Below are positions 30,729 through 31,567 of a stretch of 64,000 bases of DNA, piece by piece. Origin of the DNA: Escherichia coli (GTDB lineage Bacteria; Pseudomonadota; Gammaproteobacteria; Enterobacterales; Enterobacteriaceae); the NCBI RefSeq assembly GCF_030013205.1, contig NZ_CP122648.1; one strand, written 5' to 3'. The notes under the pieces are model-generated. The model saw only the letters and a list, made by a program, of their open reading frames with translations, had not been told where the DNA came from and did no database searches. The first letter of the stretch is position 1. Each line of letters starts with the position of its first letter. Both the position numbers and the translations under genes were made by a program.

Positions 30729-30757
30729 CGCGTATTAACCTTTTTGGTTGCTTTTCA

Positions 30758-30799
30758 TACACCGCAGAGATGTTACATTGATGCGGTGTATTTGTTTTT
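30758..30799 (+). terminator. Rho-independent terminator of apbC
   Basis: Hairpin acaccgca...tgcggtgt followed by tttgttttt. Confidence 0.5.
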
Positions 30800-30990
30800 G
30801 CCGCATTAATGAACACTTATTTAATGCTGCGAATATTCTGCGGACCTTCGTCCGAAACTCTATAAAGTCGATTGATCGTACAGGCAATGCTTCATTATCA
30901 TCCTTCGTGGCTGTGTAGTGGATGTACAGCTATAGTTTGTTATGCATTCATTCTATCCAGGCATAACCTTTACTATAGGGATAACGTTCA

Positions 30991-31272
30991 ATGAATAAGT
31001 ACTGGCTGTCAGGAATTATTTTTCTTGCCTATGGAATGGCTTCTCCCGCGTTCTCTTCACAGACTGCCACATTAACGATTAATGGCAGGATCAGTCCCCC
31101 AACATGCAGTATGGCTATGGTTAATGGTCAACCTCAACAGCATTGTGGTCAGTTAACGTATGATGTTGATACCCGTCATCAGGTTTCTTCGCCAGTCAAA
31201 GGTGTAACGACAGAAGTGGTTGTTGCAGGTAGCGATAGCAAACGTCGAATCGTGTTAAATCGCTACGATTAA
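30991..31272 (+). CDS. yehE: Small secreted protein of unknown function
   Basis: 93-aa ORF with signal peptide, upstream of the yehDCBA fimbrial operon. Confidence 0.65.
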   Translation: MNKYWLSGIIFLAYGMASPAFSSQTATLTINGRISPPTCSMAMVNGQPQQHCGQLTYDVDTRHQVSSPVKGVTTEVVVAGSDSKRRIVLNRYD

Positions 31273-31567
31273 TTTGCCACCCTGGTTTTTTAATCGGATT
31301 TAGAAAGCTGAAATCATTCGTGTGAATGATTTCAGCTTTTTTATTGATATCAATAATACCATTTACAAATATCTGCATTAATTAATAGATGTGATAAATA
31401 TTTAATATGCTTAAGTATTTGTTGTATTTATATTGCAATAGTTAATTTGTTTTAAATCAATAAAACAATATGTTTACATTGCGGCAACTTTTTTGATGTG
31501 GGAAATTTGTTTCCAAGAGATACAGACTCTTAACAACCAAAAAATAAATTTTATTAAGGAACATATT

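What the first reader, a model, noticed from the sequence alone, without database searches (positions are those of the whole stretch)
30729..31567. AT-rich leader of the cryptic yehDCBA chaperone-usher fimbrial operon
Long AT-rich, curvature-prone intergenic DNA precedes yehD, typical of H-NS-silenced fimbrial promoters. The small yehE gene sits within it.
Basis: established knowledge. Interest (0 to 1): 0.15.

Follow-up and report, generated by a model that had tools for sequence, protein, structure and literature searches.

The report
yehE gene plus silenced yehD promoter
This 839-base interval of an E. coli chromosome holds a small gene (yehE) with its own promoter and terminator, followed by the very AT-rich, already documented H-NS-bound control region of the yehDCBA fimbrial operon; it is ordinary and largely known.

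Summary
Bases 30729-31567 run exactly from the base after the apbC stop to the base before the yehD ATG of E. coli, 100% identical to strain K_EC180.

The interval is not one "leader". It has three parts:
- the apbC terminator;
- yehE (DUF2574) with its own promoter-like site and an intrinsic terminator supported by covariation;
- a 295-bp spacer before yehD.

Only the spacer is extremely AT-rich (25% GC; 22% after the terminator). It is the lowest 227-bp stretch in the 64 kb. Predicted curvature, phased A-tracts and the high-affinity H-NS motif are not enriched.

Published work on the K-12 orthologue lists this spacer as an H-NS-bound "promoter island". yehDCBA is H-NS-repressed, raised by SlyA and repressed by ArcA. 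In EHEC, CsrA binds the yehD 5'UTR.

What I add:
- The distal spacer evolves fast, but about 120 bp near yehD are nearly invariant between deeply diverged alleles.
- A 43-bp core, conserved across genera, coincides with the published ArcA-P site and with a promoter-like -35/-10 pair.
- yehE travels with Yeh-type fimbrial operons, and its N-terminus is homologous to pilin N-termini.

Verdict: already known, low interest.

The parts
30757..30800 (+). apbC intrinsic terminator: stem ACACCGCA...TGCGGTGT followed by a T-rich run
   Evidence: Inverted repeat I2 at 30757-30791. The fold gives -23.3 kcal/mol for 30729-30810. The arms CACCGCA/TGCGGTG are conserved in Citrobacter loci (alignment A7).
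30872..30901 (+). Candidate sigma-70 promoter of yehE (TTGATC, 18-nt spacer, TATCAT)
   Evidence: Consensus scan, 9 of 12 matches. The same position holds TTGCTC-18-TATTAT in C. farmeri and TTGATC-18-TACAAT in C. freundii (A7). This is an inference; no transcription start data.
30991..31272 (+). yehE coding sequence: 93 aa, signal peptide, DUF2574/YehE family
   Evidence: Pfam PF10836, E 1.4e-51. RefSeq names it 'YehE family protein'. dN/dS is 0.25-0.44 between alleles. Residues 1-43 are homologous to the YehD-type pilin N-terminus (hhalign 95%, E 4e-8).
31302..31342 (+). yehE intrinsic terminator: 13-bp core stem GCUGAAAUCAUUC/GAAUGAUUUCAGC, GUGU loop, U6 run
   Evidence: Free energy -23.5 kcal/mol, z -7.25, 0 of 200 shuffles as stable. 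Over 6 orthologues 98.7% of cells are paired, 6 of 13 pairs carry compensatory double changes, and 0 of 500 shuffles reach the observed covariation score (2 of 500 reach the count of 6 pairs). A strong hairpin sits at the same place in all 8 loci examined; most, not all, are followed by a clear T-run.
31343..31415 (.). Distal, fast-evolving AT-rich part of the yehE-yehD spacer
   Evidence: About 22% GC. Window versus O157 identity is 0.66 over 31320-31419. Only 777 of 5426 genomes give a megablast match to 31320-31419. It is AT-rich in all 8 orthologous loci although the sequence is not conserved.
31416..31536 (+). Proximal conserved block of the yehD control region (promoter, operator, start of the 5'UTR)
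   Evidence: About 94% of columns are invariant among three alleles whose flanking genes have dS 0.7-1.2. Window versus O157 identity is 0.96 over 31420-31519, equal highest with one usher stretch across yehE-yehA. At least 95% identity in 4415 of 5426 E. coli genomes.
31451..31480 (+). Candidate yehD core promoter: -35 TTTAAA (31451-31456), 18-nt spacer, -10 TACATT (31475-31480); predicted start near 31487
   Evidence: My position-weight scan places this pair at the same position in 6 of 8 orthologues. Both hexamers fall in cross-genus invariant blocks TTAAATCAA and TT(T/C)ACATTG (A4). This is an inference; Park et al. list 'no TSS' for yehDCBA.
31448..31490 (-). Published ArcA-P operator: four direct repeats at 11-bp spacing
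   Evidence: One mismatch to the K-12 sequence AAGTTGCCGCAATGTAAACACATTGTTTTATTGATTTAAAACA. That sequence is given in Park et al. 2013 supplementary tables. The ChIP-seq peak was seen in one replicate at 3.9-fold, the box scores 12.3 bits, and yehDCBA is 5.4-fold up in the arcA mutant. TGT(A/G)AA and ATTTAA are invariant in all 8 orthologues.
31556..31561 (+). AAGGAA: Shine-Dalgarno sequence and CsrA GGA site of yehD
   Evidence: AGGA is invariant in 8 orthologues. CsrA binds the EHEC yehD 5'UTR in EMSA, and a GG-to-CC change abolishes binding (PMC11287998).
31568..32110 (+). yehD, major fimbrial subunit; first gene of yehDCBA (yehC 32191-32865, yehB to 35361, yehA 35377-36411)
   Evidence: Pfam Fimbrial, PapD_N and PapD_C hits. 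RefSeq annotation.

Best explanation
The interval is a composite of ordinary, mostly documented elements.

(1) apbC ends with an intrinsic terminator.

(2) yehE is a separate small transcription unit. It has its own sigma-70-type promoter (inferred). It encodes a 93-aa secreted protein whose N-terminus derives from a pilin. It ends in a strong intrinsic terminator (shown by energy and covariation).

(3) The 227 bp after that terminator are the control region of yehDCBA.
- The extreme AT content makes the region a platform on which H-NS polymerises. H-NS keeps the many promoter-like sites unproductive. This is the 'promoter island' or xenogeneic-silencing state, published for K-12 and inferred for this allele.
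- Embedded in it is a deeply conserved core, about 31448-31490. There a weak promoter (-35 TTTAAA, -10 TACATT; inferred) is overlapped by ArcA-P direct repeats. Phosphorylated ArcA would therefore occlude RNA polymerase under anaerobic conditions (published ChIP and expression data for K-12; the occlusion step is inferred).
- SlyA overproduction relieves silencing (published).
- The roughly 80-nt unstructured 5'UTR carries a GGA at the ribosome-binding site that CsrA binds (published for EHEC).
For: - Identity and anatomy.
- AT-richness confined to the spacer, which is the extreme of the 64 kb.
- Density of promoter-like sites: 18 at 5 bits or more in 227 bp against a mean of 4.6, top 0.6% of windows.
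- K-12 orthologue listed as an H-NS-bound promoter island.
- yehDCBA in the H-NS regulon, 3.6-fold up on SlyA overexpression.
- Static protein-occupancy domain over yehEDCBA.
- yehE terminator.
- Conserved yehE promoter-like site.
- Architecture (yehE, then hairpin, then about 200 bp at 23-29% GC, then the pilin gene) kept in 8 loci from Escherichia, Citrobacter and Superficieibacter, including one at a different chromosomal site.
- Island of conservation at 31420-31519 inside a locus with dS 0.7-1.2.
- Cross-genus invariant blocks.
- Exact correspondence of the core to the published ArcA-P four-repeat site, with 5.4-fold derepression in the arcA mutant.
- Most ArcA-repressed promoters have the site overlapping the RNA polymerase footprint.
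- CsrA binding to the yehD 5'UTR.
Against: - No H-NS, ArcA or transcription data exist for this strain. Everything regulatory is transferred from K-12 or EHEC.
- The ArcA ChIP peak was seen in only one replicate, and the motif score is modest (12.3 bits). ArcA-like matches are also easy to find in AT-rich DNA.
- No transcription start is mapped for yehD. My -35/-10 pair is weak (4 of 6 in each hexamer), and in two orthologues the -10 is CACATT.
- The tool's stringent consensus scan found fewer promoter-like sites than shuffles in 30500-32300: 2 against 5.2.
- The Lang high-affinity H-NS motif and intrinsic curvature are not enriched.
- One preprint treats yehEDCBA as a single operon.
- Yeh fimbriae were obtained from a Ptet construct that starts at yehE. 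Read-through of the terminator, or plasmid activity of the internal promoter, therefore cannot be excluded.
- Loss of protein occupancy did not induce yehDCBA, and EHEC expresses yeh from its native promoter. 'Silenced' is therefore condition- and strain-dependent.
Confidence: 0.8

Rival explanations
1. yehE and yehDCBA form a single operon (yehEDCBA). The AT-rich spacer would then be a transcribed intercistronic leader, and the hairpin would act as an attenuator or an RNA-stability element rather than a terminator.
For: - A preprint names the unit yehEDCBA.
- A Ptet construct beginning at the yehE ATG and covering ECs2914-2918 produced Yeh fimbriae.
- yehE is linked to Yeh-type operons in 7 of 9 contexts.
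Against: - The hairpin has 13 core pairs plus a U6 run, -23.5 kcal/mol, z -7.25, and its structure is maintained by compensatory changes. That is the signature of an intrinsic terminator.
- A separately conserved promoter/operator core lies downstream of it.
- In Superficieibacter L012 the yehE homologue is divergent from the fimbrial operon, so co-transcription is not required.
- The EHEC RT-PCR paper treats yehD as the first gene of the locus, and the locus it complemented was Z3276-Z3279, four genes.
- No conserved RNA structure is found in the spacer's 3' part.
Confidence: 0.12
2. The AT-richness is a passive relic of horizontal acquisition or mutation bias, with no regulatory role. Published H-NS binding would be incidental.
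For: - The whole yeh cluster is low in GC (38-46%) against 52-54% for apbC and metG.
- The distal spacer evolves very fast: 32% divergence between the window and O157.
- A-tract content equals the composition expectation.
Against: - AT-richness of the spacer (23-29% GC in the last 200 bp) is kept in 8 loci of three genera although the sequence turns over.
- The spacer is far more AT-rich than the adjacent yeh genes.
- The proximal block is under strong constraint.
- Published expression changes with H-NS, SlyA and ArcA.
Confidence: 0.05
3. The spacer is a phase-variation switch: either a fimS-like invertible promoter or a pap-like Dam/Lrp methylation switch.
For: - Many fimbrial operons are phase-variable (established knowledge).
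- An imperfect inverted repeat lies at 31339-31353 / 31451-31465.
Against: - That repeat is imperfect (87% over 15 nt), AT-rich, and its left arm is not conserved in O157.
- No recombinase gene lies in the locus.
- The only GATC sites are at 30874 and 31089; none lies upstream of yehD.
- All 5308 genomes with full-length matches are reported as single collinear places.
Confidence: 0.02
4. The spacer encodes a structured RNA leader, a small RNA or a leader peptide that controls yehD.
For: - The window allele has a mini-ORF, MFTLRQLF*, at 31470-31496 (read directly).
- A 5'UTR bound by CsrA exists in EHEC.
Against: - Rfam finds nothing meaningful at E up to 1.
- RNAalifold predicts no conserved pairs in the putative 5'UTR.
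- The mini-ORF start is absent in Citrobacter orthologues, for example GCG in L014.
Confidence: 0.02

Closest known systems
K-12 yehD/yehE 'promoter island' (Panyukov & Ozoline 2013; Shavkunov et al. 2009): H-NS-bound AT-rich regions dense in promoter-like sites
   Same: It is the orthologous region. It has the same extreme AT content and a high density of promoter-like sites (top 0.6% of the window). It sits next to a compositionally foreign gene cluster. The K-12 region is listed as H-NS-bound.
   Different: This strain carries a minority allele: 94% identity to K-12 over the interval, and at least 99% identity in only 293 of 5422 genomes. I could not reproduce the original PlatProm scoring. 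A stringent consensus scan shows no excess of sites.
H-NS-silenced cryptic chaperone-usher operons of E. coli K-12 (Korea et al. 2010: ycb/elf, yad, sfm, yeh)
   Same: An intact pilin-chaperone-usher-adhesin operon preceded by an AT-rich upstream region. The literature reports H-NS repression and SlyA counter-silencing.
   Different: No intrinsic curvature, phased A-tracts or high-affinity H-NS motif was found here. EHEC expresses yeh from its native promoter.
ArcA-P multi-direct-repeat operators that overlap sigma-70 promoters (Park et al. 2013)
   Same: The window carries the published four-repeat site with one mismatch. It overlaps the best positionally conserved -35/-10 candidate, which is the usual repression geometry.
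   Different: The ChIP signal was seen in only one replicate, and no start site is mapped. The cross-genus conservation of the site is my observation; I did not find it in the papers I read.
Salmonella stc and Citrobacter Yeh-type gamma-4 fimbrial loci at the apbC-rcnB position
   Same: Same synteny in Citrobacter loci L006, L009 and L014: metG | apbC | DUF2574 | pilin | chaperone | usher | adhesin | rcnB. Wurpel et al. report Yeh = Stc at the same locus in Salmonella and Citrobacter.
   Different: The pilins are only about 30% identical to E. coli YehD. I did not retrieve a named Salmonella locus.
Chaperone-usher pilin N-terminal region (signal peptide plus donor-strand segment, e.g. FimG ADVTITVNGKVVA)
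   Same: YehE residues 1-43 align with YehD-family residues 1-45 (hhalign 95%, E 4e-8). They also align weakly with FimG, FimA and StkA N-termini. The DUF2574 profile also hits major subunits in Gallibacterium.
   Different: The mature protein has only about 71 residues. Residues 44-93 match no pilin profile. There is no PF00419 hit and no usable structure model.

Membership tests
H-NS xenogeneic-silencing target / H-NS-silenced fimbrial promoter | AT content far above the genomic background | tested here: met
   GC is 25.1% over 31273-31567 and 22.0% over 31341-31567, against 48.7% for the window. This is the lowest 227-bp stretch in the 64 kb.
H-NS xenogeneic-silencing target / H-NS-silenced fimbrial promoter | H-NS occupancy in vivo (ChIP) | not testable with these tools
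   Literature on the K-12 orthologue only: bound in the Kahramanoglou and Oshima data sets, and inside a static protein-occupancy domain.
H-NS xenogeneic-silencing target / H-NS-silenced fimbrial promoter | Derepression in an hns mutant or by an H-NS antagonist | not testable with these tools
   PMC5797941 states that yeh is repressed by H-NS (citing Korea 2010) and is 3.6-fold up on SlyA overexpression.
H-NS xenogeneic-silencing target / H-NS-silenced fimbrial promoter | High-affinity nucleation motif tCGATAAATT (Lang et al. 2007; recalled from memory) | tested here: not met
   Only two matches with 2 mismatches lie in the spacer (31265, 31380). The window-wide count is 93 against 76 expected.
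H-NS xenogeneic-silencing target / H-NS-silenced fimbrial promoter | Intrinsic curvature or phased A-tracts (a frequent but not obligatory feature) | tested here: not met
   The A-tract count equals the dinucleotide-shuffle expectation, and no 10-11 bp periodicity is seen. The wedge model gives 5.4 degrees per turn, below the window mean and below shuffles.
Promoter island (Ozoline group) | Unusually high density of promoter-like sites on both strands over about 300 bp | tested here: met
   18 sites at 5 bits or more in 227 bp, against a mean of 4.6; top 0.6% of windows. The K-12 orthologue is in the published list of 78. The stricter consensus scan shows no excess.
ArcA-P operator | Two or more TGTTAA-like direct repeats at 11-bp centre-to-centre spacing | tested here: met
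   43 nt with one mismatch to the published K-12 four-repeat site. Repeats 2 and 4 are invariant across 8 orthologues.
ArcA-P operator | ArcA binding in vivo and arcA-dependent expression | not testable with these tools
   Published for K-12: a ChIP-seq peak in one replicate (3.9-fold), and yehDCBA 5.4-fold up in the arcA mutant.
Rho-independent terminator (3' of yehE) | Stable stem-loop immediately followed by a U-run, with the structure conserved | tested here: met
   -23.5 kcal/mol, z -7.25, U6 run. 98.7% of cells are paired, and 6 pairs carry compensatory changes.
Chaperone-usher fimbrial operon (gamma-4, Yeh/Stc type) | Pilin, PapD-like chaperone, usher and adhesin genes in one cluster | tested here: met
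   PF00419, PF00345/PF02753 and PF00419 hits for YehD, YehC and YehA. The usher is identified by RefSeq annotation and by Pfam hits in orthologous loci. Assignment to the gamma-4 class comes from the literature.
DUF2574 / YehE family | Full-length match to PF10836 above the gathering score | tested here: met
   172.7 bits against a cut-off of 27.5, E 1.4e-51, covering residues 1-93.
Fimbrial subunit (PF00419) - is YehE a pilin? | Match to the pilin domain beyond the N-terminal segment | tested here: not met
   No PF00419 hit at E up to 1. hhalign aligns only residues 1-43. PDB profile hits are N-terminal only, with E 0.3-9.
Structured cis-regulatory RNA leader | Match to a known RNA family, or a conserved secondary structure | tested here: not met
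   Rfam gives only chance-level hits. RNAalifold predicts 0 pairs.
Phase-variation switch (fimS-type inversion or pap-type Dam/Lrp) | Flanking inverted repeats with a recombinase, or paired GATC sites upstream of the pilin gene | tested here: not met
   No conserved flanking inverted repeats and no recombinase gene. No GATC in 31273-31567.

The most novel reading that the evidence does not exclude
YehE may be a functional fifth component of Yeh/Stc-type fimbrial modules, not a bystander gene. It would be a roughly 71-residue periplasmic 'mini-pilin' that keeps a pilin signal peptide and a donor-strand-like segment (TLTINGRxS..C) and ends in a pilin-like ...IVLNRYD tail. It is expressed from its own promoter, outside the H-NS/ArcA-controlled yehD promoter. 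Such a protein could cap or anchor the fibre by donor-strand exchange without offering an acceptor groove (PapH-like termination). Alternatively it could titrate the YehC chaperone.

Evidence that does not exclude this reading:
- N-terminal homology to pilins.
- dN/dS of 0.25-0.44.
- Linkage to Yeh-type operons in 7 of 9 contexts, including a different chromosomal site.
- An invariant C-terminus.
Probability: 0.2. Interest if true: 0.45.

Novelty: already known. Interest (0 to 1): 0.12.

Why it matters
It matters little beyond annotation. The region is a textbook-style example of an AT-rich, H-NS-bound control region in front of a poorly expressed fimbrial operon, and the K-12 copy is already catalogued.

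Two results are modestly useful:
- They show which part of such a region is constrained. About 120 bp of promoter/operator are kept nearly invariant while the AT-rich remainder turns over.
- The deep conservation supports the single-replicate ArcA site upstream of yehD as a real functional element. It does not show which protein binds there.

Together these suggest oxygen-dependent control of a so-called cryptic fimbria. The uncharacterised yehE gene is a cheap target for anyone studying chaperone-usher assembly.

Tried and rejected
- Rfam scan of 29000-33000 at E up to 1: only chance-level eukaryotic families.
- RNAalifold on the putative yehD 5'UTR of 8 orthologues: no pairs.
- Lang H-NS motif search: no local enrichment.
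- A-tract phasing and wedge-model curvature: not above composition controls. The wedge parameters were recalled from memory; a phased-A6 control behaved as expected.
- Invertible-element and Dam-switch readings: no supporting repeats or GATC pairs.
- Leader-peptide reading (MFTLRQLF* at 31470-31496): the start codon is not conserved across genera.
- AlphaFold2 of YehE with a 12-sequence alignment: pLDDT 48.9, unusable, so no fold search was run.
- AlphaFold2 of a YehC-(GGGGS)6-YehE fusion with 8 paired rows: pLDDT 47.2. Even the chaperone was poorly modelled, so the result is uninformative.
- PDB profile search with the YehE family: only marginal N-terminal hits to FimG and FimA.
- Literature search for 'yehE' alone was swamped by the author name Yeh E. 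A search for DUF2574/PF10836 found only a Gallibacterium domain census.
- One early script read an alignment row in place of locus L009. It was rerun from locus files only.
- The first 2.4 kb of the three-allele alignment are misaligned because of indels in the DUF4132 pseudogene. I ignored them.
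Full report
**What is at the coordinates.** The window around the finding reads metG (-, 27454-29496), apbC (+, ending at 30728), a 93-codon ORF at 30991-31272, then four co-directional ORFs from 31568 to 36411. 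The interval 30729-31567 is 100% identical to E. coli strain K_EC180. It matches 5422 of 5426 complete E. coli genomes, always at one chromosomal place. RefSeq annotates the neighbourhood as apbC | yehE | yehD | yehC | yehB | yehA | rcnB. Pfam confirms DUF2574 for YehE (E 1.4e-51), Fimbrial for YehD and YehA, and PapD_N/PapD_C for YehC. The finding therefore starts at the base after the apbC stop and ends at the base before the yehD ATG (31568).

**Is the AT-richness real?** Yes, but it is concentrated.
- The whole interval is 36.1% GC, against 48.7% for the window; 2.9% of equal-sized windows are as low.
- The apbC-yehE gap (39.7%) and yehE itself (44.3%) are only mildly AT-rich.
- The 295-bp yehE-yehD spacer is 25.1% GC. 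The 227 bp after the yehE hairpin are 22.0% GC, essentially the lowest 227-bp stretch in the 64 kb.

"Curvature-prone" did not survive testing.
- The 20 A/T-tracts in the spacer far exceed the window mean of 6.4. They equal what the spacer's own dinucleotide content gives (shuffle mean 20.0).
- AA/TT periodicity at 9-12 bp is never above shuffles.
- A wedge-model estimate gives 5.4 degrees per turn. The window mean is 6.4, composition-matched shuffles give 7.65, and a phased A6 control gives 24. The parameters were recalled from memory, so this is approximate.
- The Lang high-affinity H-NS motif is not locally enriched.

**The interval is not one leader.** It contains three kinds of element.
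- *The apbC terminator.* A hairpin at 30757-30791 followed by a T-rich run. Its arms are conserved in Citrobacter.
- *yehE as its own unit.* A promoter-like TTGATC-18-TATCAT lies at 30872-30901. It is kept at the same position in two Citrobacter species, as TTGCTC-18-TATTAT and TTGATC-18-TACAAT.
- *The yehE terminator.* The gene is followed by a 13-bp-core hairpin plus U6 at 31302-31342, with -23.5 kcal/mol and z -7.25. All eight orthologous loci I collected have a strong hairpin at this position, and most are followed by a T-run. Across six alignable orthologues 98.7% of cells are paired. Six of 13 pairs carry compensatory double changes (for example GCUGAAA, GCCGAAA and GCCAAAA with matching changes on the other arm). 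No shuffle of 500 reaches the observed covariation score, and slid controls pair at only 32-47%. This is the signature of a maintained intrinsic terminator. Most transcription entering from yehE should therefore stop before the AT-rich spacer.

**What the spacer is.** Published work on the K-12 orthologue already describes it.
- Panyukov and Ozoline list "yehD(-)/yehE(-)" (357 bp) among 78 promoter islands. These are AT-rich regions with very many potential start sites that bind RNA polymerase but give little productive RNA. This one is marked as H-NS-bound in the Kahramanoglou and Oshima data sets and as lying in predicted genomic islands.
- Curran et al. list yehDCBA in the H-NS regulon and as 3.6-fold up on SlyA overexpression. 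They state that Korea et al. 2010 found the operon H-NS-repressed.
- A 2024 preprint places yehEDCBA in a static extended protein-occupancy domain. It notes that loss of the domain does not by itself induce yehDCBA.
- In my own scan the spacer holds 18 promoter-like sites of at least 5 bits on both strands, against a mean of 4.6 (top 0.6% of windows). The tool's stricter consensus scan finds no excess.

The H-NS interpretation is thus supported by literature for a 94%-identical orthologue. It was not measured for this allele.

**A conserved core inside the AT-rich DNA.** The yeh locus exists as deeply diverged alleles. Between this window (or K-12) and O157, dS is 0.73-1.2 for yehE and yehD against 0.11 for apbC. 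The yehA adhesin is barely alignable, at 35-46% identity.
- Against that background, identity falls to 0.66 at 31320-31419 and jumps to 0.96 at 31420-31519. That value is equal highest, with one stretch of the usher gene, across yehE-yehA.
- In a three-allele alignment about 94% of columns are invariant from about 31416 to 31536.
- Across 5426 genomes, 31420-31519 finds matches of at least 95% identity in 4415. The adjacent 31320-31419 finds matches in only 777. Megablast needs a 28-nt exact word, so O157-type cores are missed. The first number is therefore a lower bound.
- Across genera (Citrobacter farmeri, C. freundii, Superficieibacter and two unnamed contigs), the blocks TTG..TTAAATCAA.AAA, TT(T/C)ACATTG, GTG and the AGGA ribosome-binding site are invariant. 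One of these loci sits at a different chromosomal site.

**What the core does.** There are two overlapping readings.
- *Promoter.* My weight-matrix scan places a -35 TTTAAA (31451-31456), an 18-nt spacer and a -10 TACATT (31475-31480) at the same aligned position in six of eight orthologues. This predicts a start near 31487 and a 5'UTR of about 80 nt. It is an inference; no start site is mapped.
- *ArcA operator.* Park et al. 2013 report an ArcA ChIP-seq peak upstream of yehD (one replicate, 3.9-fold). They also report a four-direct-repeat ArcA-P site whose 43-nt sequence they print, and 5.4-fold derepression of yehDCBA in an arcA mutant grown anaerobically. They list "no TSS". That 43-mer matches the window at 31448-31490 on the minus strand with one mismatch, which is exactly the cross-genus core. 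In their data most repressed promoters have the ArcA site over the RNA polymerase footprint, and that fits the overlap seen here.

The deep conservation is independent support that this single-replicate site lies in a functional element. It does not prove that ArcA is the constraining factor.

Downstream, RNAalifold finds no conserved structure and Rfam finds nothing. The invariant AAGGAA at 31556-31561 is the ribosome-binding site. In EHEC it is the GGA that CsrA binds in EMSA, and CsrA promotes YehD expression. EHEC expresses yeh from its native promoter, and ethanolamine raises it. Earlier lacZ fusions showed more expression at 28 degrees C. "Cryptic" is therefore conditional.

**Rivals.**
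- *A single yehEDCBA operon.* This cannot be excluded, because Yeh fimbriae were made from a Ptet construct starting at yehE. The maintained terminator, the separate downstream promoter/operator, and a Superficieibacter locus where the yehE homologue is divergent from the operon argue against obligatory co-transcription.
- *A phase switch.* Unlikely: there are no conserved flanking repeats, no recombinase gene and no GATC upstream of yehD.
- *A leader peptide.* Not conserved across genera.
- *Neutral AT-richness.* Contradicted by its persistence while the sequence turns over.

**yehE itself.** The family is small: 33 representatives at E up to 1e-3 among 1.8 billion proteins. It is found in Escherichia, Shigella, Citrobacter, Superficieibacter and Klebsiella.
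- In seven of nine contexts it lies next to a pilin-chaperone-usher-adhesin cluster.
- dN/dS of 0.25-0.44 indicates a constrained coding gene.
- Profile-profile comparison aligns YehE residues 1-43 (signal peptide plus TLTINGRxS..C) with the N-terminus of YehD-type pilins (95% probability, E 4e-8).
- The YehD N-terminus hits DUF2574 (E 7e-4), and PF10836 hits major subunits in Gallibacterium.
- The remaining 50 residues match nothing. They end in an invariant IVLNRYD that resembles the YehA tail, but that resemblance is too short to test.
- Two AlphaFold attempts failed.

A role in fibre assembly is possible but unshown.

**Verdict.** The corrections are:
- the interval is a gene plus two intergenic regions, not a leader;
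- only the last 295 bp are strongly AT-rich;
- curvature is not supported;
- control involves a conserved ArcA-overlapped promoter core and CsrA as well as H-NS.

Novelty: already known. Interest: low.

Noticed in passing
window ~38359-47344: An island of about 8.9 kb lies in front of thiM, and RefSeq annotates the TPP riboswitch on both sides of it (~38359-38454 and ~47248-47344). It carries a tyrosine integrase, a GmrSD type IV restriction endonuclease, several HTH proteins and a small recombinase. About 2 kb at ~43515-45503 is AT-rich and unannotated. The island accounts for the other low-GC stretches in the window.
   Followed up: partly
window ~30820-36330: The yeh locus exists as deeply diverged alleles inside a conserved frame. 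Between the window or K-12 and O157, dS is 0.7-1.2 in yehE and yehD against 0.11 in apbC. The yehA adhesin is only 35-46% identical at the nucleotide level. The window's allele is a minority one: at least 99% identity in 293 of 5422 genomes.
   Followed up: partly
L004 6084-6853 (E. coli NCTC9967): An IS1 element sits just after the apbC terminator, and everything from yehE to the middle of yehA is deleted. This is a natural knockout of the whole locus.
   Followed up: no
L012 660-6273 (Superficieibacter sp.): A Yeh-type module lies at a different chromosomal site, with the yehE homologue oriented divergently from the fimbrial operon. Its pilin is 59% identical to E. coli YehD, whereas the syntenic Citrobacter pilins are about 30% identical. 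This suggests horizontal exchange of the module.
   Followed up: no
L011 1-7100 (Klebsiella sp.): An orphan DUF2574 gene has no adjacent fimbrial operon. About 5.8 kb upstream of it contains no ORF of 110 aa or more and no called genes.
   Followed up: no
window 31501: This allele has G where K-12 and O157 have A (GTGGGAAAT against GTGAGAAAT). The change creates a second GGA in the putative yehD 5'UTR, a possible extra CsrA contact.
   Followed up: no
window ~24729-27313: The DUF4132 gene upstream of metG (yehH/yehI region) is annotated as a pseudogene with an internal stop in K_EC180, K-12-like and O157 genomes, but is intact in NCTC9967.
   Followed up: no
window 31339-31362 and 31446-31469: There are two copies of a TTGAT(A/T)TCAATAA-like motif about 107 bp apart, roughly ten helical turns. 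One lies just after the yehE terminator and the other inside the conserved core. The upstream copy is not conserved in O157.
   Followed up: no
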